64,000 nt of DNA from contig JAJYHX010000004.1 in assembly GCA_021784575.1 (NCBI GenBank), positions 778-64,777 on the forward strand, given 5' to 3'. Position numbers and translations under genes: made by a program. The notes under the pieces were generated by a model. It worked only from the letters and a program-made list of their open reading frames with translations, made no database searches and was not told the DNA's origin. How positions within the stretch are numbered: position 1 is the stretch's first letter; each line of letters opens with the position of its first letter. The DNA is from Nitrospirota bacterium (GTDB taxonomy: Bacteria; Nitrospirota; JACRHJ01). Below are positions 11,861-58,471 of this stretch, piece after piece.

Positions 11861-11880
11861 TTAAGAGCTTCCCGCTTGTA

Positions 11881-18232: not shown

Positions 18233-19645
18233 ATGTGTAAAATCGTTTTTATATTCGCAGCCTTCATAGCCCTTTCTTCTCCGGCCCTTGCCGCGCCCTC
18301 GGTGCGCCAGAGGTTTAACCTCGGTTTCTCTCCTCCCCTGATAGCCGTCAGCCGGTTCAATTCCGGCGGCGAACTCCTTGCCGTCCAACTCTCGGCCAAT
18401 GGCAGCCAGCCCGCCCGCGTTATCGCTGTAAGCCGAAGAGGCGGGCTTAAGCTTGTCGAAGACCTCACGGACAAGAAAACCCTTACCGTCCCCGGCCCCA
18501 GGCTATGGATAGCTCGTGCCGGGCAAACCGGCGGGCCAAAAACCGGTCAACCCAAAAATAGTCTGCCGGTTGAGGCCGGTCTGCCGGCGACGCCGATCTC
18601 GAAGGAGCTTCCGGTTATCCGCCGCCGGGTATGGCTCGCCAAATCCGGCGAGTGCTATGCCGTCGCCTACTTTGCCTCCGGGGGGTGGTACGAGATCCGG
18701 TATATGGACAAGGACGGGAAACTGCTCTTTATAGCCGCGCCGAAGGACGATTACGGCCTAGCCTCCGTAATCATCTCCGACGACGGCTCACGCGTGCTCA
18801 TAGACGACGAGACTCCGCCGTACAGCATGACAAAACCCGGACAGAGGCTTTATCTCTACGATCGAAACGGCAAACTGCTTATGGACAGGGACGCGGGTGA
18901 AAACCTCGACGGCTGGCTCGATGCGCAGGACGGATTCATGGCGGCGGACGGGAGCTGTTTCGCCGCGCCGATGGGTATGGGGAAAAGGCAATGCTCCTCG
19001 ATAGTCCTCCTGGACAAAAACGGAAAACAGATGTGGAAAGAGTCCTATTTCCCACGGCATATCATAGAAGGCTGTCTGGGCGGCCTCTTCCGCGTGCGCG
19101 GGGGAAATCTCTCGTTCATAAACCTGATTGACAGGCAGGGCAACCTGAAGACTGTCGGGCGCAAAGGATACGGTTTTGAGCTTATGCTCTCAAAGGATGC
19201 AAAAAAGGCATATATGATGATGTTCAAGCCGTTCGACGTAAAAAACAGCGGCCTGACAAGGCAGATTAAGGCCATATTCCCAAAAGCGGAGGTCATTGCC
19301 GTGAACCTCCCGGAGCTTGCCGTCTCGGCCGGTAGACCGGCTTCAACCGGTAGACCGGCCTTGACCGGCGGCCGGGTTTCAGATCCCCAGCCGGCCCGGC
19401 CAAACAGCCTGGCTTCAGATATCAAGATAGCGCTTTCACCGGACGGGAAAAGCTTCATCTGCTACGCCAGCCGCGCTGCAATGGGTATGCAGGAAACCGT
19501 CATCCGGCTTTTCGGCGAAGACCAAACCTTGCTCTGGGAAAAATATTTCTTCCAGGCCGGGATTGTGCCAAAATTCACAGGCAGCCGGGATTTTCTACTG
19601 AAGTTCGGCTACCCCGTCAAAAGGCTCGCGTTCTTCTCGCCTTAG
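18233..19645 (+). CDS. Hypothetical secreted protein, probably beta-propeller-like
   Basis: Signal peptide ending ALA; repeated blade-like motifs ISDDGSRV, AADGSCF, LSKDAKK, LSPDGKSF and D.nG.LLW. Confidence 0.6.
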   Translation: MCKIVFIFAAFIALSSPALAAPSVRQRFNLGFSPPLIAVSRFNSGGELLAVQLSANGSQPARVIAVSRRGGLKLVEDLTDKKTLTVPGPRLWIARAGQTGGPKTGQPKNSLPVEAGLPATPISKELPVIRRRVWLAKSGECYAVAYFASGGWYEIRYMDKDGKLLFIAAPKDDYGLASVIISDDGSRVLIDDETPPYSMTKPGQRLYLYDRNGKLLMDRDAGENLDGWLDAQDGFMAADGSCFAAPMGMGKRQCSSIVLLDKNGKQMWKESYFPRHIIEGCLGGLFRVRGGNLSFINLIDRQGNLKTVGRKGYGFELMLSKDAKKAYMMMFKPFDVKNSGLTRQIKAIFPKAEVIAVNLPELAVSAGRPASTGRPALTGGRVSDPQPARPNSLASDIKIALSPDGKSFICYASRAAMGMQETVIRLFGEDQTLLWEKYFFQAGIVPKFTGSRDFLLKFGYPVKRLAFFSP

Positions 19646-40623: not shown

Positions 40624-41916
40624 TCAGGCGGCTTTGACCTTTTTTGACTGAGATAGCACAAGTTCGAGCGTCTTCTCCTCCCCAAGCATCCCCCTGAGCG
40701 CCTCCATTCCGCCTTCCCTCCGCGAATAGAGTTCCTTTAAATCCTTGGGGTTATGCCCCATCTGGGCCGCAAGGCGCTGTATCCCCTGCTCCAGCTCCTG
40801 GTCTGAAACCCTGACCCCTTCCTTGTCCGATATTGCGGCAAGAACAAGAGATACCTTTACCCTCTCGGAGGCCATTTTCACGGCCTCTTCCTCGAAACGC
40901 TTCATCTCGGCGCCGGCTTCTTCAGGCTTCAGCCCGGAGGATAAAAGCTCCCGGCGTTTCCTCGCCTTAAGCGAGCCTATTTCCCTGTCCACCAGGGACT
41001 GCGGCAATTCAAAATCGTGCCGCTTCCCGAGCTCTTCCATTATCTTGCCTTTCTGCATCTCGGCCTGGTTCCGGCGTTTTACGTTCAGGATGTCCTCGCG
41101 CACCTTTGCCTTCAGCTCGTCCAGGCTTTCGGCAATCCTCGTATCCTTTGCGAACTCATCGTCAAGGTCGGGGAGGATTTTCTTCTTTATGTCTTTCAGC
41201 GTTATTTTAAAGACCGCCTCCTTCCCGGCCAAGTCTGCGCTCTTGTAACCTTCCGGAAACGTTACGGTAATTTCCTTGGAATCGCCATTTTTCATCCCCA
41301 TTACCTGCTCCTCGAAGCCGGGTATGAAGCTTTCCGAGCCCAGGTTCAGGGGGTAGTTTTCGGCCTTTCCCCCGGGTATTGAGGCCCCGTTTGTGAACCC
41401 TTCAAAGTCTATCACTGCAAAATCGCCTTTTGCCGCCGGACGGTCTTCGGAGACCGCTTCCAGCGTGGAATTTACGTCCCGCAACTCAAGAAGTGCCGAG
41501 GAAAGCTCCTCCTCCGAGACGGAAAGCTCCTCTTCCGGGACTTCTATGCCGTTGTAGTCCAAGGAAATTTCCGGACGCACCTCCACTTCCGCAGTGAAGG
41601 AGACAGGCTCTCCCTTTTTAATCTTGAAATCGCTTTCGGCAAACTTCGGCTCGTCCACCGGGATAATGCCCGCATCCCGGACAGCCTGGAAGTAATTCAC
41701 CGGGATTATCCGCTCCAGGACATCGGCCTCGACGCTCTTTCCATATTTTTTTTCGAGAATCTCCCTGGGGACATGTCCAGGCCTAAAACCTTCTACTTTC
41801 ACGGACTTGTTGAGTTCCGCATAGGCCTTGTTAAGTGCGGCGCTTATGTCCTCTGAGGATATTTCGACTTTCAGGCGCTTCCTGGTCTTTGCAAGTTCTT
41901 CAATCTCGAATTTCAT
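40624..41916 (-). CDS. tig: Trigger factor
   Basis: GFRPGHVP ribosome-binding motif and FKBP domain (IDFEG, FIPGFEEQ); start MKFEI at 41916. Confidence 0.96.
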   Translation of the reverse strand: MKFEIEELAKTRKRLKVEISSEDISAALNKAYAELNKSVKVEGFRPGHVPREILEKKYGKSVEADVLERIIPVNYFQAVRDAGIIPVDEPKFAESDFKIKKGEPVSFTAEVEVRPEISLDYNGIEVPEEELSVSEEELSSALLELRDVNSTLEAVSEDRPAAKGDFAVIDFEGFTNGASIPGGKAENYPLNLGSESFIPGFEEQVMGMKNGDSKEITVTFPEGYKSADLAGKEAVFKITLKDIKKKILPDLDDEFAKDTRIAESLDELKAKVREDILNVKRRNQAEMQKGKIMEELGKRHDFELPQSLVDREIGSLKARKRRELLSSGLKPEEAGAEMKRFEEEAVKMASERVKVSLVLAAISDKEGVRVSDQELEQGIQRLAAQMGHNPKDLKELYSRREGGMEALRGMLGEEKTLELVLSQSKKVKAA

Positions 41917-41955
41917 ACGGCTATGGTCTCCTGTAGGTTCAAGTTTGGCTTTCTT

Positions 41956-42038
41956 TGGTGCGAGAGGGGGGACTTGAACCCCCATGGTTGCCCACCGGAT
42001 CCTAAGTCCGGCGCGTCTGCCAGTTCCGCCACTCTCGC
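41956..42038 (-). tRNA. tRNA-Leu(TAG)
   Basis: GCGAGAGTGGCGGAACTGGCAGACGCGCCGGACTTAGGATCCGG...GTTCAAGTCCCCCTCTCGCACCA; long variable arm; CCA encoded. Confidence 0.97.
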
Positions 42039-42202
42039 GAAACCTTAAAGTTTTAAATTTATCATAACCCGTGATTTTAATCAATATTTTTAATTCCATG
42101 TTTACCTTTCGCACGGGCCGGTTTTATATTCTTGACAACGGGATACCGATTCCAGTAGGCTTACGTAACGGACGGTTCCCGAGATTTTTTTTGCCGGAGC
42201 GG

Positions 42203-45122: not shown

Positions 45123-46586
45123 TCACTCTTTTTCCTTCCATATTATACCCTCCGGCATTTTATATTTTATCGTCGTGGAGCCGTTCCGCACTACGCCGGA
45201 GAACCACGAGTTGTCTTCCCAGAATATCCCTTCGGGCATCAGCACCCTCACGGCGGCAAGCCGCCCCTTGCCCTGAAGCTCAACCGGCCCGGAATCGCGC
45301 GCCTTCCGCCTCGCCGGGTCGTAGCCGTAGAGCTCGGTGTCGAAGGAAACCCATGCGGGGTTTTGCGATGCGTCGTATTCGAGCGTAATCCTGTATATCC
45401 CCGGCGCCGCATGTTTTACGAAGAAAGAAGCGGTTCGCCGGCCTTCCTTCAGGTCCGTCCCGCCGGAGGCCGGAGGGGCCGAGCCGGGGTTCGGCGGACA
45501 AGGCGTCCAACTGTTTAATATCCTGTATCTGACAAGACCCTTGAAATCAAATTGCACCGCTATGTCGGCAGGGTTGTATGAAACGGATATTTCGTCTTCG
45601 GCCGTGCGGCCCTGCGGGTCGCGCACGGACGCACGGATCTTGTTTATTCCTTCTTCAAGGGTCACCTGCGCCTTGAACTTTCCATTTCTCGTCGGCACCT
45701 CCAGCAGGGACTCGCCAACCAGGACGTTTACGGAGCTTATTCCCTTCCCGATAACGGCGCCCGAAACCTCTATCGTCTTCACCGCCGCAATCCCTCCCGA
45801 TGGATAAAGTATCTTTATCTCAGGCGAAATGTCCGGCTTTAGCGGCACGCCGATTCCGGCGCCATGAGCCTTCGAGAATATCGGTTCCGAGACCGTCGTC
45901 ACGTTACCCATCCCCGAAAAATTACCCTGAGTCGGGATATTCACCGGTTCGGCGGCCAGTTCTGCGGCCGGTTCGGGCGTCGGCTCAGTGACCGGTTCAG
46001 TGGCCGAAACATCCGGCAAGGCGGATTCTGCGGGCGGCCTTGCGGTGGAATATCCGGAAAACGGCGCAGCATTATCCGTGGACATCGGCTGGAAAACAGG
46101 GCCGTTCCCCTCGTCGGATACGGGTATTACCGGCCCTGCGGAAGCCAGAACGACTTCCTTTTGAGTGCCTTTTATGACTAAAACACCTTTGGGGGCGTTA
46201 TCGGAAACGGCGCCTTCTTCGCTGTTTTTTGAGACGGGTTTACCGGTTTCATGCGTGGTTTTTATCGCGGCTGCGGCCAGAGAATGACTGTGCGGCGCCT
46301 TATGCGCGGGTGTGACCTTGCGGGCGGCTTTCTTTCGGGGGGCCTTGATATTCCGGGGGACATTGTGTTCCTCTCGAACCGGGGCGGGCGGGCGCTCTTC
46401 GGGAAGGGTTATGAGATGCACAAAAGAGAGCGTCTCCCGCACGGGATTTCCATAGACCACCGATATTTGCGTAAGGGCGATTGCCGCGCATAAATGGAAC
46501 AGCAGGGAAAACAGCGCGAATGACCGCAATATCCCCGACTTCTTCTGTTTTACTGCTATGCGTTCGCGTCCGCGGCATTTCTTCAT
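45123..46586 (-). CDS. Hypothetical protein: TonB/TolA-like TM anchor, Pro/Lys-rich linker, Ig-like and unknown C-terminal domains
   Basis: FSLLFH (SxxxH) helix; TEP/AAE repeats; VTLEEGINKI Ig-like motif. Start placed just after the DUF192 stop. Confidence 0.55.
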   Translation of the reverse strand: MKKCRGRERIAVKQKKSGILRSFALFSLLFHLCAAIALTQISVVYGNPVRETLSFVHLITLPEERPPAPVREEHNVPRNIKAPRKKAARKVTPAHKAPHSHSLAAAAIKTTHETGKPVSKNSEEGAVSDNAPKGVLVIKGTQKEVVLASAGPVIPVSDEGNGPVFQPMSTDNAAPFSGYSTARPPAESALPDVSATEPVTEPTPEPAAELAAEPVNIPTQGNFSGMGNVTTVSEPIFSKAHGAGIGVPLKPDISPEIKILYPSGGIAAVKTIEVSGAVIGKGISSVNVLVGESLLEVPTRNGKFKAQVTLEEGINKIRASVRDPQGRTAEDEISVSYNPADIAVQFDFKGLVRYRILNSWTPCPPNPGSAPPASGGTDLKEGRRTASFFVKHAAPGIYRITLEYDASQNPAWVSFDTELYGYDPARRKARDSGPVELQGKGRLAAVRVLMPEGIFWEDNSWFSGVVRNGSTTIKYKMPEGIIWKEKE

Positions 46587-46587
46587 C

Positions 46588-46947
46588 TCACTCCGTGACG
46601 GGCAACAGAACAAGCTCATCCCCCGGCCGGGCCGAACGGTCTTCGGTCGTCCCCGCCGCGACCTCGATCACGCCTGCGGCCCGCGGATGCCATGCGGATA
46701 TGCGGAGGGGCTTCATGTTCCTCGTAATGGCGATTATCCTTCCCCGCCTGTCAAAGAATATGACGTCTATCGGAAAACGCATCCCCACCGTATGGACCGA
46801 ACTGCACGGCATTATGACAAGGCCCTCGCCTTCATTCAACCTTTCCCTGCCCAGGAGGCCCTTCATCCTCGGGAAGGCCTTACGCGCGACTTCCGCATAC
46901 GCCAGGACGGCATTGTTTGACCTGTTTATTATCCTGACCTTTTCCAA
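46588..46947 (-). CDS. DUF192 family protein
   Basis: RMKGLLGR, SVHTVGMRFPIDV.F.D, VIEVAAG. Confidence 0.88.
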   Translation of the reverse strand: MEKVRIINRSNNAVLAYAEVARKAFPRMKGLLGRERLNEGEGLVIMPCSSVHTVGMRFPIDVIFFDRRGRIIAITRNMKPLRISAWHPRAAGVIEVAAGTTEDRSARPGDELVLLPVTE

Positions 46948-46963
46948 CCTTAAGGCCGTCCCT

Positions 46964-47899
46964 TCATTTGACCACGTGTCCGAATATCGCGCTGTATATC
47001 CTTATCCCCGCCGGGCCGAGCAACACAACGAACATGGCCGGGAATATGCACGTCGCCAGAGGAAATATCAGCTTGATGGACGTCTTGGCGGCGGCCTCCT
47101 CGGCCATCTGGCGTCTCCTGGTCCTTAGGGAGTCCGAATGGACCCTGAGCGCCCTCGACAGGCTCGCCCCGAGCTTGTCCGTCTGGATGAGAAGCGCCGC
47201 CAGGGACCTTATGTCCTCGACGCCGGTCCTCTCGCCCATGTCCCTGAGCGCTTCCGCCCGAGGCTTGCCGGCCCTTGTCTCCTGGCTTACAATCAGGAAC
47301 TCCGATGCCAGGACATTCTTGGAGAACAGCTTGTCCTGGACTATCCTTATAATCGCGGCGTCCAGCCCCAGGCCCGCTTCCACGCAGACGGTCATGAGGT
47401 CCAGCACGTCCGGGAGCGAATGGAATATCGCCGTCTTCCTGTTCTTAAGCTTGTGCCTTAAAAAAACATTGGGGACCAGAAGGCCGACTATGAAACCGGC
47501 TATCCCTCCAAGCAAGGCCAACTTCATGCCGGTCACAGGGTAAAGCCCCAGGGTAACGACGGCGAACAGGCCCACGCTCAATATTATCTTGATACCGCCG
47601 AATACCGCGACCGCGCCGGGGGAGCGGTACCCGGCCTGCACAAGCATCCGCCCGTAATAGGTTTTGGCGCGGGGTGACATAGGCATTACGGCGCTTATCT
47701 CTCCCACCTTCTGCGACCAGCCCGATTCGGTCTCTTTTGAGAGGATCTCGGGACGCTCGGGCGCATCGGCGGATTTCAGCTCCCGCAGCCGTTCGCCGAT
47801 GTCGGTCTTACGTAAAGCAAGCGTCCTCAGTATTAAAAATGCGGCGAAACCGATTGCAATAAACACCGAAACGGATACCAGATAAATGCTGACAGGCAT
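46964..47899 (-). CDS. tadC: Tad pilus platform protein TadC
   Basis: LPDVLDL...VEAGLGL, AEEAAAK...KL.FPL...IFP. Confidence 0.92.
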   Translation of the reverse strand: MPVSIYLVSVSVFIAIGFAAFLILRTLALRKTDIGERLRELKSADAPERPEILSKETESGWSQKVGEISAVMPMSPRAKTYYGRMLVQAGYRSPGAVAVFGGIKIILSVGLFAVVTLGLYPVTGMKLALLGGIAGFIVGLLVPNVFLRHKLKNRKTAIFHSLPDVLDLMTVCVEAGLGLDAAIIRIVQDKLFSKNVLASEFLIVSQETRAGKPRAEALRDMGERTGVEDIRSLAALLIQTDKLGASLSRALRVHSDSLRTRRRQMAEEAAAKTSIKLIFPLATCIFPAMFVVLLGPAGIRIYSAIFGHVVK

Positions 47900-47908
47900 T
47901 GCCGCCTC

Positions 47909-48880
47909 CTATACCTTTATGGCTATTATCCGTTTAATGATGAAAAAGCCTATCACCTGCAACGACAGCGCGGCTATTGCCATATAAAGACCCGTGTGCG
48001 TCTTTACAAGCGGCCTCAGATAAGCGGGGTTTATAAACATAAGCGCAAGGACGAGGAAAACGGGCAGGGCGGCAAGGATGTATCCCGACATCCTGCCCTG
48101 GGCGGTATATACCCTGAGCTGCCGGTATACCTTCAGGCGCTCCCTTATGGTAACGCCCAGCTTCTCCAGCAGCTCCGCCAGGTTTCCGCCCGCATCCTTC
48201 TGTATGTTCACCGAGGTCACGAAGAATTCCAGGTCCATGCTCGGCATCTGGGTTGTCATGTTGTCGAGCGCATCCGACAGAGGGAGCCCGAAGTTCTGCT
48301 CGTCGTATGCCGTCTTGAATAGCTTCGCAACCGGCTCGGGAGATTCCTGGGAGACTATCTGCATCGCGCTCACAAACGAATGCCCGGCCCTGAGAGACAA
48401 GGCCATCATATCCAGCGTATCCGGAAACAGCTCCGTGAATTTTCTGAGGCGCTTCTGCACCATGTTAAGCAGGAAGACATACGGTATGAACGCCAGCACA
48501 AGCCCTATCATAACACCGACGAGTAACCCCCGGTGGATAATCACGCATCCCAGAACCCCGACACAAAAAAGCAGGGCCGTTAGCAGAACCAGCGTCCCCA
48601 CGCTGAGTTTCGTATCCGAATGACTTATCAGTTTCTGCATCCTGCGCGCCGGACTGAACCGGTAAAGCATTTTGTTTAAAAAAGGCACTTCGCTTAAGAT
48701 CTGGGACTTCAATATCAATGACGTGTCCCGGGCGGCGGCATCTCCCTTCGCTATCGACTGAAGCCTGCGCCGCACCTCGCTTTTGACAGATCCCCTGGTT
48801 AACGCGATTCCATAGTATATGCCCAGAATTGCGAGGAACGTCGCCGCAAAGACGACTGTCATTATAATGAGGATGTGCAT
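47909..48880 (-). CDS. tadB: Tad pilus platform protein TadB
   Basis: FPDTLD...SLRAGHS, GGNLAE.L, TAQGRMS...L..LP. Confidence 0.92.
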   Translation of the reverse strand: MHILIIMTVVFAATFLAILGIYYGIALTRGSVKSEVRRRLQSIAKGDAAARDTSLILKSQILSEVPFLNKMLYRFSPARRMQKLISHSDTKLSVGTLVLLTALLFCVGVLGCVIIHRGLLVGVMIGLVLAFIPYVFLLNMVQKRLRKFTELFPDTLDMMALSLRAGHSFVSAMQIVSQESPEPVAKLFKTAYDEQNFGLPLSDALDNMTTQMPSMDLEFFVTSVNIQKDAGGNLAELLEKLGVTIRERLKVYRQLRVYTAQGRMSGYILAALPVFLVLALMFINPAYLRPLVKTHTGLYMAIAALSLQVIGFFIIKRIIAIKV

Positions 48881-48883
48881 AGC

Positions 48884-50254
48884 TTACGCCCTCCTTGTTT
48901 CCTCAAATATATTTACGGGAAGGTCTATCCCGGCAAGGCGGAGTTTCTCGGCGAATCTGGGCCGCACCCCGGTTGCCTTGTACTCGCCTATTACATCTCC
49001 GTCCTGGTTTATGCCTTTCTTTTCAAACAGGAAGATGTCCTGCATCACTACAACGTTGCCCTCCATGCCGGTGACCTCGGAAACCTTTATTATCTTTCTC
49101 GTGCCGTCCGAAAGGCGGGCCAGCTGCACGATGATGTTAATGGCCGAGGCTATCTGTTCCTTTATGGCCCTGTCCGGGAGGTCCATGCCGGCCATCATTA
49201 CCATTGTCTCAAGCCTGGAGAGGGCATCCCTCGTGGAATTGGCGTGGATGGTCGAGACGGAGCCGTCGTGCCCGGTGTTCATGGCCTGCAACATGTCCAG
49301 GGATTCGCCGCCTCTCACCTCGCCCAATATTATTCTGTCGGGCCGCATCCGGAGCGCGTTCCTGACAAGGTCCCTCTGCGTTATCTGGCCTGCGCCTTCG
49401 ATATTCGGCGGGCGTGTCTCCAGGCGCACAACATGTTCCTGCTTGAGCTGCAACTCAGCCGAATCCTCGATCGTCACTATGCGCTCGTCACCGGGCACGT
49501 ACTCAGAAATAATGTTTAACAGGGTGGTTTTGCCGCTCCCCGTCCCGCCTGAGATGAGCATGTTCAGACGGGCCTTTACCGCGCCCTTCAGAACCTCGGC
49601 CATGCTTTCGGTCAGCGAGCCGTTGGCCAGGATATTTTTCATCCTGAGCGGGTCCGCGCCGAACCGTCTTATCGAGAGCGCCGGGCCGTCTATCGCAAGC
49701 GGCGGTATAATCGCGTTTACACGTGAGCCGTCCGGGAGGCGCGCATCCACCATAGGACAGGACTCGTCTATCCTTCTGCCCACCTTCGAGACTATGCGGT
49801 CGATTATCTGCATGAGGTGCGCGTCGTCCCGGAAGGCGACGTCCACCTTGTGCAGCCTTCCGGATTTCTCCACGTATATGTTCCGCGAGTTGTTTACAAG
49901 TATATCCGATATGTCCGGGTCGGTCATCAGGGGCTCCAGGGGGCCGAGGCCGAACGTCTCGTGCTGGATGTCTACAATCAGGCGCTCCCTTTCTATCTGG
50001 TTCAGCGGGACGTTTTCACCGCTTATCATGTCCGTGAGGATGAGCGCTATCTCGTTTCTAAGCTGGCTTTTTTCTATGTTTTCGAGGTTGCCGAGGTCAA
50101 GCTTTTCTATAAGCCGCCTGTGTATCCTGGACTTGAGCTCCTGATAGTGGTCTTTCCGGCTTTCGATTTCCACGTCGGGCAGGGTCGTTTTCGGCGGGTC
50201 CTGCTTCTTCGCATCGCCCGGCTTTAAATTCAACAATCTCTCTTTTAAGCTCAT
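48884..50254 (-). CDS. tadA: Tad pilus assembly ATPase CpaF/TadA
   Basis: [44 protein letters not shown]. Confidence 0.96.
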
Positions 50255-51399
50255 TTCGGCCTCCCGGCAAAATAATGCTCCACTTTGGCCGCGAAATCTC
50301 TGTATGATTTGCTGATCTCAGAGTTTGGGAACAGGACCGGCAGCGGCTGCCCTCTGTTAATGGATGTTATTACGGAGTTGAAATCGTTGGGTATGTCCCA
50401 GAAACAATCGTAACCGAGTGTCTTTTCAGCGTCTTTTATGCTTATGTCTCCTCTTTTCAGATACCTGTTGACAACAAGCTTCACCTTGCCTCCCATGTCG
50501 AGCCTGCTGAACACGGTGAGCGATTTCTGGAGGCTCTTGATTGAGGGCAGGCTCATGACCCCGACTGCGACTATCAAATCGGACACGTCGAAGGCCGCGA
50601 GGTTCATTTCGTTGAACGAGCCTGCGGAGTCCACGACTACATAGCTGAACATCTTCTTCAGGAGGTTTATCACGGCCCTTGCGTCGTTGGGAGTTACGCT
50701 TATCGCTTCCTCGATTGTTTTCGGCTCTCCGAGCAGATAAATCCCCGATGCGTGTTTTGCGAGGACTCCCCTCAGGAAGACGGCGTCGAGCCTGGAGATG
50801 TTGGCCGTAACGTCCGAAATCGTATATTTCGGTTTCAGGTTCAGGAATATGCCCGCGTCCCCGCCTTCGAGGTCGAGGTCTACCAGGACCACCTGCTTGT
50901 TGGTTGCCAGGTGAAGGCTTACGGCAAGGTTGGTGGCTATGGAGGTATTCCCGGTTCCTCCCTTTGGAGAGAAACAGAGTATGGCCTTGCCGTGCGCGTT
51001 TGCTTCGCCGCCGGAGGGAGACGAGGCGAGCGACCCGATTTTCTTTAACGAATTGAAAATATCCCTCGGCTTTATCGGCCTCGGCAGAAAATCGCTCGCG
51101 CCGGAGCGCATGGCCCTAAGGATTATATCGGATGAGCTGTCCCGGGAAATGGCGAATATGGACAGCCCGGGGACCGCCTCCAGCATTTTCTCCATTACCT
51201 GAAATGCCTGCGGCAGGTCAATATCCAGGTCTATCAGCACAAGCGTCGGTTTCAGCTTGAGGATGCCTTCATACCCGGAAGAGTAGTTTTTCGCCGTTCC
51301 GGCCACCGTCATGCCAGCAAACTGGCTCAATATCTCCGTCGTCGCGCTTCTCGAATCCTCGTCTCCGTCTATGATAAATGCTGTTACGCGTTCGGTCAT
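50251..51399 (-). CDS. cpaE: CpaE/TadZ receiver + MinD-like protein
   Basis: N-terminal receiver-like domain; deviant Walker A KGGTGNT; VDLDL; IPND. Confidence 0.88.
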
Positions 51400-51419
51400 T
51401 TTTGTTCTTTCCCATGAGA

Positions 51420-52955
51420 TTAATGATTGACAAGTCCATATTTGAGGTTCGGGTCCACAAGCACTACCGCGCCCTCGGCATCGACATCATTCACAAGCTG
51501 CTGAAGTTTCTGGGTAAAACTGCAATCCGGCGCGGGGTCGCTTTGCGGCGGCTGCAGGATATATTCGTCGTCCGCCCCCAGCTGCGGCGGCAGCGGCACG
51601 GCGTGCCCGTATGCCGTCCCTCCGCCCTTGCCGTTAGGCCCTCCGGGGTCGAGCGTCGAGGGGTCTCCGTTAAAGGGGCTGTCCGAGTAGCCGTCTATCT
51701 GGATTATGCCGTAACCGACCACCGTTACCGCGTCCGCCACGCTGTTGCCTGGAGTATGCGTGCCGTCATAGACCATCACTATCAGCTTCGAGCCTTTCGG
51801 ATACTGCTGCCAGAACCTTATTCCGTTCAGGCTGTCGGTCGCCAAATAGAATTTCTTGTTGAGCGGGTTCGAGCCGCTGCTGTCGAAATAGGGAATAGTG
51901 GCGTACGGGCACTGGGACGGGTCGTTTCCGTTGGAAGTGTTATAGTTGTCGTCTGGATAATAGTTTGGAGAATACCTGATTATCTCTCTCACGGCGTTCG
52001 GCGGAATGACGTTGGACGGTATGCCGTTGAACAGATAGCTGAAGTTGAGGTCGTATTTAGTCGGGTTGACGGTGCCGGAGTTCGCCGATGGTATCTGTGA
52101 GAAGTTGCTGGGGCATGAGGGACTGCATGTGCCCGTGTTGGCATTCTGCTGGACCTCATACCACGTTCCGTTACCATTGTGATAATCCGTCCTGAGCAGG
52201 ACGTCGACGTAACCGTTCATATTGAACGAACTCTTATTGACGTTAGCCGCGGCGCCTATTATGGCGAAGGTCTTTCCTCCAAGCCCCGGAGTGAGATTGT
52301 CCGCATTCAGAGACCTCATGAAACTATCCGGGTATACCTGGTTATACGGCGACCCGGGGGTAGGGCTAGAACCTTCGTTCCAGTACTCGTTGACCGCTAT
52401 GGGCACAACGTTGACATTGTGTATCCTCGCGGCAATTGCCACCGAGGATATTCCCGTATTGAATAGCGAGAATACGCGCGAGAACCAGTTCTCGACCAGA
52501 GGCTGCGCGGGTATTGTCCCCTGGCGCCGGGCGTATACCTCGACTGCGTTGATGGGCGCAGTCCCGCCGGTGACGGCGGGCGTGAAGACGCCTTTGGCCC
52601 AGTTCCCGACGATTATATCCGCATCGGGCTGAAGCGCCACCGGTATCGGCCCCCCAACGGGCGCTCCGGGAGACGGCCCGTATGCCGGCACGTCTGAATA
52701 GGCCACGTCCGCAAAGTTCAGGGCCGCGATCCTCTGCGCCGCGTCCCTGGCGTAGGTCTGGGTGGTGTCGGTCGTGCCGTCGAGGTTCTCCGCCCCGGCG
52801 AGGGCGGCGGCGTCCGCCGCCACCTGAAGCTGGTTCTTCACCTGATACAGGTGCCCGATGTCTATGGCCATGGCGGCCATCCCCATTAGCACTACCAGAG
52901 ACAGCGCCAGCAATACCAGCGAGAACCCTTTTTCGTTTTTAACCGCTTTAAACAT
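51420..52955 (-). CDS. TadG-like pilus-associated protein
   Basis: NEKG|F prepilin-like leader; AIDIG...LQ.AADAAALAGA Tad motif; long unique C-terminal region with Cys pairs. Confidence 0.8.
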   Translation of the reverse strand: MFKAVKNEKGFSLVLLALSLVVLMGMAAMAIDIGHLYQVKNQLQVAADAAALAGAENLDGTTDTTQTYARDAAQRIAALNFADVAYSDVPAYGPSPGAPVGGPIPVALQPDADIIVGNWAKGVFTPAVTGGTAPINAVEVYARRQGTIPAQPLVENWFSRVFSLFNTGISSVAIAARIHNVNVVPIAVNEYWNEGSSPTPGSPYNQVYPDSFMRSLNADNLTPGLGGKTFAIIGAAANVNKSSFNMNGYVDVLLRTDYHNGNGTWYEVQQNANTGTCSPSCPSNFSQIPSANSGTVNPTKYDLNFSYLFNGIPSNVIPPNAVREIIRYSPNYYPDDNYNTSNGNDPSQCPYATIPYFDSSGSNPLNKKFYLATDSLNGIRFWQQYPKGSKLIVMVYDGTHTPGNSVADAVTVVGYGIIQIDGYSDSPFNGDPSTLDPGGPNGKGGGTAYGHAVPLPPQLGADDEYILQPPQSDPAPDCSFTQKLQQLVNDVDAEGAVVLVDPNLKYGLVNH

Positions 52956-52982
52956 GGCTCCCCTCTTGCGTGAACACCCCGG

Positions 52983-54467
52983 TTATTTAAGCTTCTCCGG
53001 GTCGAGAGACCTGTGCGTAGGCATAAGAGGTATCCATCTCAGGTCCTCTTTCTGCTGCTTGTTCGGCTCGTTCGCTCCGGGGAACTTAACCTTCTTGCCC
53101 GGGGCCATCGGCTGCATGAGCTTCGGCGTTATGAAGAACAGGAGCTCCTGGTCTTTTTTGTTCATGGTCTGATACCTGAAAAACGCGCCTATAATCGGGA
53201 GGTCTCCAAGCACCGGTAGCTTGGCCAGCTCCTTGCTCCAGGTATTGTTTATAAGGCCCGCTATTACGAACGACTGGCCGTCCTTCAGGTCAACCGCCGT
53301 CGAGACCCTGTTGGTAGAGAATACCGGCATGGAAAAGCCGTTGATTGACGCCTCGTTGCTGGATATGCTGCTGACCTCCGCCGGGTCTATATTAAGCCTG
53401 ATAAGCCCGGTTTCCGTAACTATCGGATTGAAATTGAGCCGCACGCCGAACTTCTTGTAATAGACGCTGACAGTCGGGGTGCCGCCGGCGTTAGCGGAGG
53501 TTACCACCGGCACAGGCACCTCGCCGCCGGCCAGGAATGTGCCCCTCGCTCCGCTCCTCACTATGAGGTTCGGCTCGGCGAGTATCTTGGCCAGCCCCTT
53601 GGAGGCAAGCGCCTGAAGCAGGTACTGGACTCCGTTATGCCAGTCCACCACGCCGAACGTGGCGCCGTTGATGTTATTGGTGGTAAGCCCGCCGCTCTGC
53701 ATCCCCTGAAGGAGCGGCCCTATAGTGGAGAGGCCGCCGGTAACCGGCGAGACGGCGGAATCCAGCGTCAGGTATTTGCCGGCATACGACCAGTTGATGC
53801 CGAGCTTGGACGACGCGTCCCTGTCTATGGAGGCGACCGTTATCTGGAGCATGACCTGCGGCGAGCCTTTCACTTCGAGGAGCATCACGAACTGAAAGCC
53901 GTTGCCCTGGCCGGCGCCGACGGGACGGACCTCTTTTACCACGCCTCCCTGGAGGACGTACAGCTCCTTCTCCGTAATGTCCCTGCCGAAACCGAGCAGG
54001 AGGTTCCGCACCTTCTGGAGCCTGTAATCCGTCGATACGGCGCCGGTAACCACCAGGGTATTGCTGTTTATCATCTTGAACTGGATGTCGTCGCCCGGGG
54101 CGATCTTTTTTACCTGCGACTTAAGCCCTGACAGGTCCACCCTGACATTCACGTCGAAGAACGTCTGGCTGCCGTTTTTCTCCCAGACTATGAGCGTTGT
54201 ATCCCCGATTTTCTTGCCGTTTATCTGGATGTCCTTCGGGTCCACAACGACGACATCCGCCACGGCCGGATCGGCAATGGAGACCGTTTTTACGGCCACC
54301 GGGATGGTAATGACGGTGGCCTTACCGACGATTACATTAATGGGTACGGCCTTGGCGGCTTCCGCGAGACCCGCCGGAAACATAATGGATATGCCAACTG
54401 CAAGCGCAAGGACAATCGACGGCATGTGCCCGGCCCTTAGCCTAAACAGTCTGTGTGCTTTGTTCAT
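52983..54467 (-). CDS. rcpA: Tad secretin RcpA/CpaC
   Basis: VSIADP.VAD, LAEPNL, FLAGGEVP, LPVLGDLPIIGAFF, ELLFFITP. Confidence 0.93.
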   Translation of the reverse strand: MNKAHRLFRLRAGHMPSIVLALAVGISIMFPAGLAEAAKAVPINVIVGKATVITIPVAVKTVSIADPAVADVVVVDPKDIQINGKKIGDTTLIVWEKNGSQTFFDVNVRVDLSGLKSQVKKIAPGDDIQFKMINSNTLVVTGAVSTDYRLQKVRNLLLGFGRDITEKELYVLQGGVVKEVRPVGAGQGNGFQFVMLLEVKGSPQVMLQITVASIDRDASSKLGINWSYAGKYLTLDSAVSPVTGGLSTIGPLLQGMQSGGLTTNNINGATFGVVDWHNGVQYLLQALASKGLAKILAEPNLIVRSGARGTFLAGGEVPVPVVTSANAGGTPTVSVYYKKFGVRLNFNPIVTETGLIRLNIDPAEVSSISSNEASINGFSMPVFSTNRVSTAVDLKDGQSFVIAGLINNTWSKELAKLPVLGDLPIIGAFFRYQTMNKKDQELLFFITPKLMQPMAPGKKVKFPGANEPNKQQKEDLRWIPLMPTHRSLDPEKLK

Positions 54468-54497
54468 TACCGCTCTCCTTTTTAAGGTCCGGGTTCT

Positions 54498-55358
54498 CTA
54501 TTTGAAAGTCTGACTGCTTATTGCGCTGCCCCTTATCACCCTTATGGAACTCATGCTCGCCTTCCTTGCGCGGGGTTTCCTTCTTATTACGCGGGCAATC
54601 CTCCGGACAGGCCTTGCGGGCGCGCTACCGAGGAGCGAATATACTGTTGCGCCGGTGGTTTTGACCTTCTGGGTGTCTCCCTCATGTTTCAGGACAAGCT
54701 GAATCCTGTTCTCGCTCGCGAGCGCGAGTTTCTCCGCCTGTTCCGGCTTTACATCCAGCGTTACCGTCGGCACCGTTACAGGCTTGCCTTCCTTCTGCTC
54801 AAGTATCTGGCCGACGGCAAGCACCTTTATGTTCTGGAGTATTATCTTGCTTATCCTCGTATTGATGCCCGCGCCCGCGGGCTGATAGGGAGAGTTGACG
54901 GTGGCGATGACATCGACAACCGCGTTCGGGAGAATAAAACCAGCCACCCCCGCCACGTCGTTTACCGCCAGCGTAATCGCCCTGTCCCCGGGCGGTATGA
55001 TAAAGCTCATCACCCCGGTGTCGGATTTGACGGGCGCGAGAGAGGATTCGAGCACCGGAGTCCCGGCGGGTATGTCGGTAACCGCGAACCTGCCCGTCGC
55101 CAGCCTGGCGTCCACGAACCCGCCCTTCGGCACGCTGCTTGCGGGCCAGGAGGCGGTTTTAAGCATGGGTGCCTGTATAATCGTGCCGAAGGGTATGTCC
55201 GACGCCGCGACGACCACCTGCCGGACCTGCGTCTTCGCCTGCATGACCTCGCGGTTCTTTGCGCTTAAATAACTGAAGACCATATACGCCGCCACGGATG
55301 CCAGCGCCAGCGCGGCAACGACAACCGTCACGGTTCTCAATCTCGTAGGTGTGGCCAT
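54498..55358 (-). CDS. cpaB: Flp pilus assembly protein CpaB/RcpC
   Basis: SAF domain VVVAASDIPFG; GVAGFILP..VDV; LQNIKVLAV; VTLDV. Confidence 0.93.
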   Translation of the reverse strand: MATPTRLRTVTVVVAALALASVAAYMVFSYLSAKNREVMQAKTQVRQVVVAASDIPFGTIIQAPMLKTASWPASSVPKGGFVDARLATGRFAVTDIPAGTPVLESSLAPVKSDTGVMSFIIPPGDRAITLAVNDVAGVAGFILPNAVVDVIATVNSPYQPAGAGINTRISKIILQNIKVLAVGQILEQKEGKPVTVPTVTLDVKPEQAEKLALASENRIQLVLKHEGDTQKVKTTGATVYSLLGSAPARPVRRIARVIRRKPRARKASMSSIRVIRGSAISSQTFK

Positions 55359-55397
55359 ATCATGCCTCCATTATTTCTCGTGGAACGGTTACGACCG

Positions 55398-55877
55398 CTA
55401 CTGTTGCGGACCCTGATACATCATGGCAGCCCGCCTTACTATGGGCACAGTCCCGTCCAGAACCGGTATTATCTCACCGCTTAAGGCACGGAAATCATAC
55501 GTTACTATAACGCTTATTGTATCGCCAGACGATATGTTATCGAAGGTCTTTGCCTGGCCGGACCGGCCCGTGGCGGAGAGATTTACGAAGACGTCTCCGC
55601 CCGGAACGGCGCCAATCTGCGCGGTTATCTGGCCGAAGGTGTAGTTTGTGACGTTGGATGTGAAGGTCTGGGCGTTTGGTTGTTTTGGTTGTTCGGATGC
55701 GAAACGCGCGCCTGCGCGCGCGCCGTTTGTCATGATATTGCCGCAATGCCAGGCCCGCGCAAACTCCGTTATCGCCAGGAGAAGCGTGACAAGGAGAAGC
55801 GCCACCAGCGCAAATTCAACAAGGGCCTGTCCCTTGACGCATCGCAGGCTGTTTTTGGCATCCGTAAGACTTATCAT
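55398..55877 (-). CDS. TadE/TadF-like pseudopilin
   Basis: KG|QALVEFAL, EFAR, ARAGARFA. Confidence 0.88.
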   Translation of the reverse strand: MISLTDAKNSLRCVKGQALVEFALVALLLVTLLLAITEFARAWHCGNIMTNGARAGARFASEQPKQPNAQTFTSNVTNYTFGQITAQIGAVPGGDVFVNLSATGRSGQAKTFDNISSGDTISVIVTYDFRALSGEIIPVLDGTVPIVRRAAMMYQGPQQ

Positions 55878-55910
55878 CGAATATAACCCTTAAGTTAATC
55901 CGTATACGCG

Positions 55911-56378
55911 CTACTCGACGAGGATGGACGCGGATCTCGTCATGGGCACAGTGCCGCTGAAATAAGACTTTTGATTACAAGATGTTACGATGCCTGGAAT
56001 AACCTCAAAATCATATACCACCGAAACTCTCAGCGTGTCGCCGTGAGTCGCGTCGCTTACCAGTTTCTGAGCATTTGTGTTCTTGTCGAACACCTGGACG
56101 CTTGGGGTGCCCTGTATCCCGTCCGGCGGGATTACGGCGCCAATCTCGCTCCTGAGATATGTTTCTATCAGCGTTTGCGAGGTGGATGAATTGCCCAGCA
56201 CCGCGCCGTACCGGGCGGCGGCCCGGACGGAATTATCGAGATTATTGGAATAAAACCAAGCTCTTCCAAATTCTATGATGCCGAAAAAAAGCGCCAGGAA
56301 AAGGGTTATTACGATGGCTGCTTCCACCATCGCCTGCCCCTTGCGGTTTTTTATGACGGTATTGCCCCCGGGCTTCAT
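55911..56378 (-). CDS. TadE/TadF-like pseudopilin
   Basis: KG|QAMVEAAI, IEFGR, RAAARYG. Confidence 0.88.
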   Translation of the reverse strand: MKPGGNTVIKNRKGQAMVEAAIVITLFLALFFGIIEFGRAWFYSNNLDNSVRAAARYGAVLGNSSTSQTLIETYLRSEIGAVIPPDGIQGTPSVQVFDKNTNAQKLVSDATHGDTLRVSVVYDFEVIPGIVTSCNQKSYFSGTVPMTRSASILVE

Positions 56379-56424
56379 GGCTGCCTCCTTTCGTCAAGGC
56401 CAAAATACTGCACCTTGCAGTCTG

Positions 56425-56453
56425 GCCCCGCCGGACATTGCATCCGGCGGGGC
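56425..56453. other. Strong stem-loop between flp and the downstream tad genes
   Basis: GCCCCGCCGGA-CATTGCA-TCCGGCGGGGC with no U-tract; probably an mRNA stabiliser or partial terminator. Confidence 0.6.
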
Positions 56454-56470
56454 AGTTCGGTTTTGCGGTC

Positions 56471-56683
56471 TTACGAGCCTATGCAGGTAGCAACTGTGTT
56501 GAGCCTGCTGGAGACATTGGTGCCGAGCGTTGAAAGCGCAACTATGGCGACTATGGCTATAAGCGCCAGGATGAGGGCGTATTCCACGAGGGCCTGCCCT
56601 TCTTCGTTTTTCAGAACGTCCTTTGCCTTCTCCATTAAATAAAAACCCTTGAACTTTCCTATCAGCCTGTTAATCATTTTCAT
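56471..56683 (-). CDS. flp: Flp family pilin
   Basis: EEG|QALVEYALILALIAIV Flp motif (G-x4-EY). Confidence 0.95.
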   Translation of the reverse strand: MKMINRLIGKFKGFYLMEKAKDVLKNEEGQALVEYALILALIAIVAIVALSTLGTNVSSRLNTVATCIGS

Positions 56684-56789
56684 CCTCCGTTTCGTTAATT
56701 AACGCCCGTTCCCTCATGCTGCTCTTAACTGCAACCCTGCCCCCGTTCGCCTCCTTTCATTAAAAGTATTAAATTTTTTTTGGAGCTTA

Positions 56790-56924
56790 AATATAACAAC
56801 TTCTTAGTATCTTGTCAATATTAATAATCTAAATAGTTGGATAATCACTTATGTTAATTATTTTCTTCTTTAGTATTGATTCGTTCTTTAAAAGAAATGT
56901 AACGAAACTCCCCGGTTTTGTCAA
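56790..56924 (-). promoter_or_regulatory. Tandem sigma70-type promoters for flp/tad
   Basis: TTGACA-N17-TATATT (56818-56790) and TTGACA-N17-TACATT (56924-56896). Confidence 0.6.
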
Positions 56925-57064
56925 AAACCTTTAATGTATTACAGGAAGTTATGCGCTCTCAAGCCGATTAGCGCCGAAATATTAAAAAAAAATAAAATAG
57001 ACAATCATAATTTGTTGTAAAAAAATTGCTCGTCTGTTATACATAGATGCAGGGGAGGTGAGAA

Positions 57065-58471
57065 ATGGGGCAGTCGCTTGGTGAAATGCTTACAAGTGCC
57101 GGAGTAATAACGGATACGGAGTTAGAAACGGCTCTCGAACGACAGAAATTATACGGAGGGCGCCTTGGCGCGAACCTGATATCCATGGGATTCATCACCA
57201 GGGAAACCCTCGACACCTTTCTTCACCACAAGCCCAAAAGACCGGCCACACTCGAAGACACCGGCCTGCCATCCGCATTTATTTCCGAGCTTGCGCTCAA
57301 GATTGCATCCTCGCTCGGGACGTTCACAATCGGCGAGGTTTCCAAAAGGATAAAGCTGCCTTCGAATATAGTTGACACAACCATACAGTCCCTCAGGCAG
57401 GACAAACTCTGCGAAGTGAAGGGCGGAGCTGGTTTTGCTCCAATAACCTATACGTTTTCCATCACGTCGGCGGGAAGGCAGCGCGCCGCCGAGCTTATCG
57501 AAAACAACCGTTATGTCGGTCCCGCACCGGTGTCGCTGGATGACTATACCAAGGCATTCGATTATCAGACGGCCAGGAACATGTTCATCCCGGAGGAAAG
57601 GCTGCGGGAGGTATTCTCTCCTTTCATATTGGACGACAGGATCTTCGAGCAATTCGGGCCGGCAGTCAATTCGGGCAAATCGATATTCATTTACGGCCCG
57701 GCCGGCAACGGCAAAACGGCCCTGGCGGAGGCCATAGGCTCGTTGATGGGCGATGAAATTTATATCCCGTACTCAATCTCGGTTGAACGGGAGATAATAA
57801 ACGTCTTCGACCCGATTAACCACAGGGAATTGCGGTCTGACGGCGAAAACAACCTGTCGTCCGACGAGAGGTGGGTCCGCTGCCGCAGGCCGATTGTGCT
57901 TGTCGGAGGAGAGCTGACCCTGAACATGCTCGACCTGGAATACAACCCGGCCTATAAATTCTACGAGGCGCCGCTTCAGCTTAAGGCGAACGGCGGAGTA
58001 TTCATAATAGACGATTTCGGAAGACAGCTTGTCAGTCCGAAGCATCTCCTTAACCGGTGGATCGTGCCGCTCGAACGCAGAACGGATTTCCTGACGCTTC
58101 ATACCGGCAAGAAGTTCGAGATACCCTTTGAACAGCTCGTGGTTTTTTCTACCAACATCGAGCCGCATGAGCTTGTGGACGAGGCTTTTTTAAGACGCAT
58201 CCGCTACAAGGTCAAGATGGATCATCCCACGAAGAAGGATTTCGCGGATATATTCCGACTGGTATGCGAGAGAAACTCCATCGAATTCAAACCCGACGTC
58301 CTCGATTACCTGCTGAAAGAGTATTACGAAAAAAAGGACGTAAAATTAAACTCCTGCCATCCCAGAGACCTGATAGACCAGATAATAGACATGGCGCATT
58401 TCCGCAATGAAAAACCGGCCCTTACGAAAGATGCCATAGACAAGGCGTGGAACAATTATTTCGTGTGCTGA
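57065..58471 (+). CDS. AAA+ ATPase with N-terminal MshEN-like (c-di-GMP-binding type) domain
   Basis: SLGEMLTSAGVI....LETALERQ-x5-RLGANLISMGFI; Walker A GPAGNGKT; Walker B FIIDDFGR; FSTN; AFLRRI. Confidence 0.8.
   Translation: MGQSLGEMLTSAGVITDTELETALERQKLYGGRLGANLISMGFITRETLDTFLHHKPKRPATLEDTGLPSAFISELALKIASSLGTFTIGEVSKRIKLPSNIVDTTIQSLRQDKLCEVKGGAGFAPITYTFSITSAGRQRAAELIENNRYVGPAPVSLDDYTKAFDYQTARNMFIPEERLREVFSPFILDDRIFEQFGPAVNSGKSIFIYGPAGNGKTALAEAIGSLMGDEIYIPYSISVEREIINVFDPINHRELRSDGENNLSSDERWVRCRRPIVLVGGELTLNMLDLEYNPAYKFYEAPLQLKANGGVFIIDDFGRQLVSPKHLLNRWIVPLERRTDFLTLHTGKKFEIPFEQLVVFSTNIEPHELVDEAFLRRIRYKVKMDHPTKKDFADIFRLVCERNSIEFKPDVLDYLLKEYYEKKDVKLNSCHPRDLIDQIIDMAHFRNEKPALTKDAIDKAWNNYFVC

What the first reader, a model, noticed from the sequence alone, without database searches (positions are those of the whole stretch)
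57065..58471. MshEN-fused AAA+ ATPase divergent from flp: candidate c-di-GMP-gated second motor or regulator of Tad pili
Seen: a tandem MshEN-type motif (first copy has S instead of R; second RLG intact) fused to an AAA+ core that lacks the PilB/GspE His-box features, sharing an intergenic region with flp. Established: MshEN binds c-di-GMP on T4aP/T2SS ATPases, and characterised Tad systems use the single CpaF ATPase. Inference: together with DUF192 and the TonB-like protein, this forms an extended Tad system with second-messenger input. It is the strongest candidate for an undescribed system here.
Basis: partly seen in the sequence, partly recalled or inferred. Interest (0 to 1): 0.72.

Follow-up and report, generated by a model that had tools for sequence, protein, structure and literature searches.

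The report
Sensor-fused accessory ATPase of Tad pili
This gene encodes a predicted ring-forming AAA+ ATPase from a large family that often travels with bacterial Tad adhesion-pilus genes, here fused to an imperfect copy of a cyclic-di-GMP-sensing domain, so it is likely a signal-controlled helper that remodels the pilus machine rather than a second pilus motor.

Summary
It is no second CpaF/PilB-type motor (no T2SSE match, no His box); its closest solved folds are a Pyrococcus hexamer of unknown function and the archaeal Lon ATPase domain. The core family is large (822 clusters at E<=1e-30) and sits inside tad operons in 5 of 5 proteobacterial plasmid loci inspected. In this phylum 26 of 28 carriers have cpaB (51 of 401 genomes do); 12 of 14 MshEN-fused copies lie within 25 kb of cpaB. 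It is accessory: 25 of 51 cpaB genomes lack it, and many relatives are unlinked. c-di-GMP binding is about even odds: the domain lacks both the first Arg and the last Gln. Best reading: an optional protein remodeller of the Tad motor complex with an exchangeable sensor; the substrate is not shown. My nine paper searches found no functional study. This scan has already noted the family and the MshEN fusion on other genomes.

The parts
57065..58471 (+). MshEN-wHTH-AAA+ ATPase gene, 468 aa (P0001)
   Evidence: AlphaFold2 mean pLDDT 94.9, pTM 0.90
57074..57232 (+). MshEN_N-type tandem motif, residues 4-56; 10 of 12 contact positions kept, R9->S4 and Q61->K56 (V. cholerae numbering) changed
   Evidence: motif definition from PMC5013675
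57245..57505 (+). winged-helix domain, residues about 61-147; recognition helix neutral or acidic across the family
   Evidence: (MarR/PadR-type fold, best Z 11.2, rmsd 1.6-2.5, 77 aligned)
57593..58468 (+). AAA+ core with an insertion after helix 1, a helix-2-insert hairpin (about 290-303), a pre-sensor-1 hairpin (about 339-355) and a helical lid with sensor-2 R434
   Evidence: secondary structure of the model (insert names are my reading of it), conservation, fold matches
56684..57064 (.). AT-rich intergenic region shared by flp and the ATPase; near-consensus sigma-70 promoter (TTGACA-17-TATATT, 11 of 12) at 56818-56790 facing flp
   Evidence: no strict sigma-54 pattern; no Rfam family at gathering score
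56471..56683 (-). flp major pilin, 70 aa, G|QALVEY processing motif
55398..56378 (-). two TadE-like minor pilins
   Evidence: PF07811
54498..55358 (-). cpaB/rcpC
   Evidence: TIGR03177 over cut-off, PF16976
52983..54467 (-). rcpA/cpaC secretin
   Evidence: PF00263 + PF13629
51420..52955 (-). tadG-like pilin
   Evidence: PF13400
50251..51399 (-). cpaE/tadZ (receiver + MinD/ParA-like ATPase)
48884..50254 (-). cpaF/tadA motor ATPase, with His box and full-length C-terminal region
   Evidence: PF00437 E 1e-70
46964..48880 (-). tadB and tadC platform genes
   Evidence: PF00482
46588..46947 (-). DUF192 protein; recurs after tadC or after the ATPase in relatives
45123..46619 (-). 'TonB-like' protein: N-terminal hydrophobic segment, Pro-rich linker, Ig-like domain, DUF2135-like tail; homologues lie directly upstream of the ATPase in several relatives

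Best explanation
The protein is an AAA+ ATPase of a Tad-associated family with an N-terminal MshEN-type domain, and it likely works as a hexameric protein remodeller that takes apart or reseats cytoplasmic parts of the Tad machine (CpaF, its TadB/TadC dock, or CpaE), likely switched by c-di-GMP in this lineage. Shown: the three-domain anatomy, intact catalytic motifs, genomic linkage and co-occurrence with tad, and accessory status. Predicted: fold, and ring formation by likeness to solved hexamers. Inferred: (1) a protein rather than DNA substrate, from the acidic winged-helix recognition helix and helix-2-insert loop and the Lon-type nearest folds; (2) a Tad part as substrate, from gene context only; (3) control through the N-terminal module, because the same core carries MshEN, FHA, HDOD or PAS-like domains in different members; (4) c-di-GMP as the ligand, about even odds. 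One concrete version: CpaF is proposed to flip over on its platform to change between extension and retraction (bioRxiv 10.64898/2026.02.24.707734), and an ATP-driven remodeller could release it on a signal.
For: Catalytic motifs conserved in 113-134 of 134 members. Best structural matches: hexameric P. furiosus Q8U0N8 (8P49; Z 17.2, rmsd 2.8, 253 aligned) and archaeal Lon ATPase domain (4ZPX; Z 15.4, rmsd 3.9, 259 aligned). Inside tad operons, co-directional, in 5 of 5 plasmid loci inspected out of 76 matching records, at two different positions: after tadC (R. etli, S. fredii) and between prepilin peptidase and cpaB (Photobacterium, P. terrae, B. pyrrocinia). Phylum sample: 26 of 28 carriers have cpaB, against 51 of 401 genomes overall. 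12 of 14 MshEN-fused copies are within 25 kb of cpaB, and the other two lie on short contigs beside tadE/tadG or the TonB-like gene. CpaF proteins of the linked systems group together across five host families (UFBoot 70; 94 with one ATPase-less CpaF), apart from ATPase-less systems of the same family f5. Recognition helix net positive in only 4% and helix-2-insert loop in 3% of 134 members. Modular N-termini among the 150 best representatives: 18 MshEN, 4 FHA, 1 HDOD, 1 PAS-like (only 36 of 150 were scanned with Pfam). The genome has 5 GGDEF and 10 MshEN-motif matches. Ten of twelve MshEN contact positions are kept in 114-120 of 120 homologues.
Against: No substrate is shown. 25 of 51 cpaB-positive genomes lack the gene. 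Only 23 of 80 metagenomic loci show a core tad gene (10 of 38 with at least 1.5 kb upstream), and 14 of 80 sit in a recurring non-tad context. All 11 family-f17 copies are unlinked to cpaB, and one intact copy (G248, 99% complete) has no cpaB or cpaF found. Kin are not independent, so the co-occurrence p-value (1.6e-24) overstates. The MshEN lacks the first Arg (R, K or L in 48 of 120) and the last Gln (0 of 120), whereas 8 of the 9 other MshEN copies in this genome keep that Gln. In PilF, a Ser at a motif start abolished binding of a rebuilt GSPII-A domain, and Q218E cut GSPII-B affinity 77-fold (PMC12002112, PMC11731258). The 120 homologues were ranked on the whole protein, which favours good MshEN matches. 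The domain is deleted or absent in two linked close relatives (G054, G061).
Confidence: 0.36

Rival explanations
1. [quoted passage not shown]
For: Both the first Arg and last Gln are changed family-wide; similar changes help explain why PilF GSPII-A does not bind; M8, H54 and H55 in this copy replace basic residues common in homologues; the domain is lost or altered in near relatives.
Against: G6, Q27, R33, G35 and all six hydrophobic cluster positions are kept in 114-120 of 120; it scores second of 10 MshEN matches in the genome; Wang et al. state that charged-residue changes including Arg9 altered affinity no more than fivefold; 107 of 120 have K/R at 54-56, which could contact phosphate; some distant members have the canonical first Arg.
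Confidence: 0.22
2. A DNA-acting protein: either a regulator of the divergent flp/tad promoter through its winged helix, or a ComM-like translocase handling DNA taken up through Tad pili.
For: The winged helix matches MarR/PadR-type regulators best; sigma-54 activators and ComM are among the top 15 fold matches (Z 13-14); divergent placement in six genomes of this family; K350 in the pre-sensor-1 hairpin is kept in 93 of 134.
Against: No GAFTGA motif and no strict sigma-54 pattern upstream of flp, which has a near-consensus sigma-70 promoter; recognition helix acidic; in most linked loci the gene lies inside or at the end of the operon, not divergent; the genome has its own ComM-type gene and ComEC.
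Confidence: 0.17
3. A general-purpose AAA+ whose link to tad is historical hitch-hiking, or which serves neighbouring envelope or glycosylation genes rather than the pilus motor.
For: 57 of 80 metagenomic loci show no core tad gene in the DNA held, many contigs being short; a recurring recJ / GT2 / ATPase / GDPD context; G248 has it without a detected tad; in G149 it lies directly upstream of a gspE-gspF cluster; GT2 and polytopic membrane genes flank it in several relatives.
Against: It is kept in tad operons at different positions in alpha-, beta- and gamma-proteobacteria and this phylum; only 2 of 350 cpaB-negative genomes carry it, one as a broken fragment; within family f17 all 10 cpaB genomes have it and 29 of 30 others do not, even though it is unlinked.
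Confidence: 0.14
4. A true second motor (for example a dedicated retraction ATPase) that drives pilin exchange at the TadB/TadC platform.
For: MshEN gates the MshE/PilB motors (PMC5013675); the gene directly follows tadC in 22 of 80 metagenomic loci.
Against: No PF00437 match while CpaF scores E 1e-70; BLASTP to CpaF E 0.08, confined to the P-loop region; His box and Asp box absent; CpaF C-terminal regions look equally complete in systems with and without the gene (by eye), so it is not filling in for a truncated CpaF.
Confidence: 0.05

Closest known systems
MshEN_N / GSPII c-di-GMP receptors (V. cholerae MshE, PDB 5HTL; T. thermophilus PilF GSPII-A/B/C)
   Same: Tandem 24-residue motif with 5-residue spacer, four-helix bundle, Leu clusters, both Gly, first Gln, second Arg.
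   Different: First Arg is Ser, last Gln is Lys; no MshEN_C subdomain; fused to a winged helix and AAA+ core instead of a T2SSE motor. My term search of the Wang et al. supplement returned one AAA fusion, MshEN_N-AAA_31 (EpsG), not this one (passages only, a figure of architectures could not be seen).
Tad/Flp (type IVc) pilus systems (Caulobacter cpa, Aggregatibacter tad)
   Same: flp, tadE x2, cpaB, rcpA, tadG, cpaE, cpaF, tadB, tadC are all present.
   Different: Extra AAA+ gene, DUF192 and TonB-like gene; no prepilin peptidase in the cluster (one A24 peptidase elsewhere in the genome). The Tad model passage of Denise et al. names tadD, rcpB, rcpC as accessory and no such ATPase (PMC6668835, passages).
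P. furiosus Q8U0N8 (PDB 8P49) and archaeal Lon (LonB) ATPase domain (4ZPX, 3K1J)
   Same: Best structural matches of the AAA+ core and lid (Z 17.2 and 15.4); Q8U0N8 is a hexamer with a flexible N-terminal domain.
   Different: 14-16% identity; no protease domain or membrane segment; Q8U0N8 itself has no known function.
sigma-54 activators (FleQ, NtrC) and ComM/YifB
   Same: AAA+ core with helix-2 and pre-sensor-1 inserts (Z 13-14); sources label many homologues 'predicted ATPase with chaperone activity', which I recall as the name of the ComM/YifB COG.
   Different: No GAFTGA loop, no C-terminal HTH, no PF01078 match for this protein; the genome encodes a separate ComM-type protein.

Membership tests
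MshEN c-di-GMP-binding domain | Tandem 24-residue motifs with 5-residue spacer, profile match over cut-off | tested here: met
   NF053729 60.8 bits vs cut-off 38; four helices at 5-53 in the model
MshEN c-di-GMP-binding domain | Hydrophobic clusters (L10/L54/L58, L25/L29/L39) and Gly11/Gly40 | tested here: met
   L5, L49, L53, L20, L24, L34, G6, G35; kept in 118-120 of 120 homologues
MshEN c-di-GMP-binding domain | [quoted passage not shown] | tested here: not met
   Motif I starts with S4, motif II ends with K56; R33 and Q27 are kept (extended consensus from PMC11731258)
MshEN c-di-GMP-binding domain | Measured c-di-GMP binding | not testable with these tools
   needs ITC or DRaCALA
Type IV filament secretion ATPases (PilB/GspE/CpaF) | T2SSE (PF00437) profile match and sequence similarity to CpaF | tested here: not met
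   No PF00437 hit at E<=0.01; BLASTP to the window's CpaF E 0.08
Type IV filament secretion ATPases (PilB/GspE/CpaF) | Asp box and His box | tested here: not met
   Patterns found in CpaF (261, 327, 335) and not in P0001 (motif patterns recalled)
Type IV filament secretion ATPases (PilB/GspE/CpaF) | Overall fold | tested here: inconclusive
   The listed rows are filled by AAA+ proteins; a family not listed is not excluded
AAA+ ATPase, helix-2-insert / pre-sensor-1-hairpin type | Walker A/B, sensor 1, arginine finger, helical lid with sensor 2, H2 and PS1 hairpins | tested here: met
   Walker B is DD rather than DE in 134 of 134
AAA+ ATPase, helix-2-insert / pre-sensor-1-hairpin type | ATP hydrolysis and ring formation | not testable with these tools
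   inferred from motifs and from the 8P49 hexamer
sigma-54 enhancer-binding proteins | GAFTGA loop | tested here: not met
ComM/YifB | PF01078 match | tested here: not met
   No hit for P0001; the genome's match is another gene at 328 bits
Tad pilus system (the neighbouring operon) | Flp, TadE/G, RcpC, RcpA, TadZ, TadA, TadB, TadC | tested here: met
Tad pilus system (the neighbouring operon) | The AAA+ protein is a physical or functional part of the machine | not testable with these tools
   gene context only; needs genetics and pull-downs

The most novel reading that the evidence does not exclude
A family of AAA+ remodellers is the missing switch of many Tad pili: it lifts CpaF off the TadB/TadC platform so that the motor can reverse or stop, and plug-in N-terminal sensors (MshEN for c-di-GMP, FHA for phospho-Thr, PAS, HDOD) wire that switch to different signals. 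This copy would be a direct c-di-GMP receptor of a Tad system, using a variant MshEN that binds without the first Arg and last Gln.
Probability: 0.13. Interest if true: 0.82.

Novelty: new variant of a known kind. Interest (0 to 1): 0.5.

Why it matters
Tad pili are described as running on one ATPase, and what triggers its change between extension and retraction is left as a hypothesis in the preprint passages I read. A second, unrelated ATPase kept inside tad operons from Rhizobium and Burkholderiaceae to this phylum, with swappable sensor domains, is a concrete and deletable candidate for that control. The MshEN-fused form would give c-di-GMP a direct entry into Tad systems, as MshE/PilB do for type IVa pili. 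It would also test how far the MshEN motif can drift and still bind. If it proves to be only a passenger, the result is an annotation fix for a large family now named only by automatic labels.

Tried and rejected
Complex prediction of the ATPase with CpaE gave no answer (score 0.23, mark 0.32, controls not folded): neither support nor evidence against. Sequencing-run search: no RNA holder listed. Rfam at gathering score on the window and five loci found only tRNAs, so no c-di-GMP riboswitch was seen upstream of flp (6 sources). Pfam gives the protein no match over cut-off; PDB sequence searches hit only the MshEN part and the P-loop region. No secretion ATPase appeared among the rows shown by either fold search, which does not exclude the family. 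The single genome-contig scan, run with one protein, returned only one 91% relative, so no named cross-phylum genome survey was possible; profiling is limited to this phylum plus five plasmid loci and 80 metagenomic loci. Idea that the gene compensates for a retraction-defective CpaF: C-termini of 27 CpaF sequences looked alike with or without it (by eye). Idea that it replaces ComM: rejected. The first tree run did not finish; FastTree on 155 of 175 cores (20 partial ones dropped) placed the 30 MshEN-bearing sequences in four separate places, the window's group being 13 of 14 with support 0.999; gains versus losses were not tested. Paper searches that found no functional study; the library lacks most subscription journals, and bioRxiv supplements and figure images could not be seen. 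A look-up of earlier notes near this place showed nothing.

Full report
Observation. Window 57065-58471 (+) is one open frame of 468 aa. It faces away from a 70-aa flp at 56471-56683 across 381 bp of 33% GC. Behind flp runs a minus-strand tad cluster: two tadE, cpaB, rcpA, tadG, cpaE, cpaF, tadB, tadC, then DUF192 and a 498-aa Pro-rich protein. No prepilin peptidase lies in the cluster; the genome has one A24 peptidase elsewhere. A 91% identical relative is titled 'Nitrospirae bacterium', so I take the phylum to be Nitrospirota (inference).

Anatomy. Residues 5-55 pass the curated cut-off of the MshE-related c-di-GMP motif and match MshEN and PilF in the PDB. An AlphaFold2 model from a 134-row alignment (pLDDT 94.9) shows a four-helix bundle, a winged helix at about 61-147, and an AAA+ core with lid. 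Folded alone, the winged helix matches MarR/PadR-type folds (best Z 11.2, many ties), which shows fold and not function. Walker A, Walker B (DD), sensor 1, arginine finger and sensor 2 are conserved in 113-134 of 134 rows. The best structural matches are P. furiosus Q8U0N8 (Z 17.2, rmsd 2.8, 253 aligned), the archaeal Lon ATPase domain (Z 15.4), then FleQ, MuB, Lon, ClpA/B, NtrC and ComM at Z 13-14. Q8U0N8 is an uncharacterised hexamer (bioRxiv 10.1101/2023.06.09.544317, passages). The protein has no T2SSE match, no His or Asp box, and no similarity to CpaF beyond the P-loop. The 'second motor' reading is therefore unlikely.

Family. The word-index search returned 8000 of 8000 scored candidates at E<=1e-10, many named 'predicted ATPase with chaperone activity'. 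Among 50%-identity representatives, 822 match the core at E<=1e-30. Of the best 150, 18 carry an MshEN-like N-terminus by a profile built from the 120 closest homologues. Of 36 long forms scanned, 4 have FHA, 1 HDOD and 1 a PAS-like domain. Atlas clusters place look-alikes in Pseudomonadota, Chloroflexota, Planctomycetota, Acidobacteriota and others (a lead only). A FastTree of 155 cores puts the 30 MshEN-bearing sequences in four places; the window's clade has 13 of 14 with support 0.999. The sensor is thus an exchangeable module on a common core.

Link to Tad. 76 plasmid records match (57 Rhizobium). All 5 inspected lie inside tad operons without MshEN: after tadC in R. etli and S. fredii, and between the peptidase and cpaB in Photobacterium, P. 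terrae and B. pyrrocinia. A transcriptome table for V. parahaemolyticus lists VP2426, 'Predicted ATPase with chaperone activity', at that same position (PMC7859628, passages; sequence not checked). In 401 genomes of this phylum, 28 carry the ATPase and 51 carry cpaB; 26 carry both (my count from the two lists). The exceptions are G329 (broken fragment) and G248 (intact, no cpaB or cpaF found). Fourteen copies are MshEN-fused (one, G208, broken): 12 lie 1.6-25 kb from cpaB and two are on short contigs next to tadE/tadG or the TonB-like gene. CpaF of the linked systems forms one group across five host families with moderate support (UFBoot 70), apart from ATPase-less CpaF of family f5. Against: 25 of 51 cpaB genomes lack the gene; 11 family-f17 copies lack MshEN and are unlinked; and of 80 metagenomic loci (best 80 of 596) only 23 show a core tad gene, 10 of 38 among those with at least 1.5 kb upstream, while 14 share a non-tad context. 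Relatedness inflates the co-occurrence statistic.

Does it bind c-di-GMP? Wang et al. define twelve contact positions (PMC5013675; parts 1-3 of 7 read, supplement searched). Ten are kept here and in 114-120 of 120 homologues, but the first Arg is Ser (R/K/L in 48 of 120) and the last Gln is absent in all 120. Eight of the nine other MshEN copies in the genome keep that Gln. Published mutants point both ways. Charged-residue changes including Arg9 altered MshE affinity at most fivefold. Lys or Leu at the first position bind tightly, while Q218E cost 77-fold (PMC11731258, passages). A Ser at the start of motif II abolished binding in rebuilt GSPII-A, where a basic residue in place of the last Gln was also among the defects (PMC12002112, passages). 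Basic residues at positions 8, 26 and 54-56 in most homologues could compensate. The genome has 5 GGDEF matches. The domain is deleted in G054, absent in G061 and has a Ser at motif II in three more relatives. I put binding at about even odds.

Mechanism. The winged-helix recognition helix and the helix-2-insert loop are net positive in only 4% and 3% of 134 members. There is no GAFTGA loop, flp has a near-consensus sigma-70 promoter, and the genome has its own ComM-type gene. These favour a protein substrate, though a conserved Lys in the pre-sensor-1 hairpin keeps DNA open. I commit to an optional remodeller of the cytoplasmic Tad motor complex, gated by its N-terminal module (0.36), with non-binding MshEN (0.22), DNA-acting (0.17), passenger (0.14) and second motor (0.05) as rivals. 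A preprint proposes that CpaF inverts on its platform to reverse direction (10.64898/2026.02.24.707734, abstract and passages); a remodeller fits that step, but nothing here shows contact with CpaF.

Novelty. The Tad system and the MshEN domain are known. Nine searches found no functional study of this ATPase family. Passages from Denise et al., a Bradyrhizobium Tad paper and a Bdellovibrio Tad preprint do not mention it. Earlier notes of this scan report the same family in Tad operons and the MshEN fusion on other genomes; they are leads, not support. Verdict: a real, testable, unstudied Tad accessory ATPase in a sensor-fused form; new variant of a known kind; interest 0.5.

Noticed in passing
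window 45123-46619 (-): The 'TonB-like' protein has an Ig-like domain and a DUF2135-like tail rather than TonB_C; four homologues tested have no Pfam match and recur next to the ATPase and a GT2 gene in extended tad clusters.
   Followed up: partly
L048 (G149) 6510-12108: TonB-like, MshEN-AAA+, gspE (with MshEN) and gspF run co-directionally, so the ATPase sits between an extended tad cluster and a type II secretion cluster.
   Followed up: partly
L043 4924-7738; L044 10643-13457: Two tandem MshEN + DUF202 proteins directly follow the ATPase in L043; L044 has similar genes by N-terminal sequence only.
   Followed up: no
L181 (G228) 18026-18298: A stand-alone PilZ gene follows the MshEN-AAA+ gene within the extended tad cluster.
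   Followed up: no
L046 (G054) 9227-10516: In-frame loss of most of the MshEN domain relative to the close relative G047; real deletion or assembly artefact not resolved.
   Followed up: partly
L044 (G030) 5735-6199: An Flp-type pilin with a long tail of GGGGN repeats.
   Followed up: no
L100, L114, L122, L132, L140, L143, L148 and others: Recurring non-tad context: recJ, divergent GT2, ATPase, glycerophosphodiester phosphodiesterase, GH3-like protein; probably one lineage, taxonomy not shown.
   Followed up: partly
L139 11294-12601: A cNMP-binding + MinD-like ATPase gene directly follows an unfused family member.
   Followed up: no
window 40624-42114 (-): The longest trigger-factor ORF overlaps a tRNA at 41959-42038, so its true start is likely further downstream.
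   Followed up: no
window 57065-58471 vs 45123-56683: The ATPase gene is 51.6% GC against 56.2% for the tad cluster and 56.6% for the genome; cause not examined.
   Followed up: no
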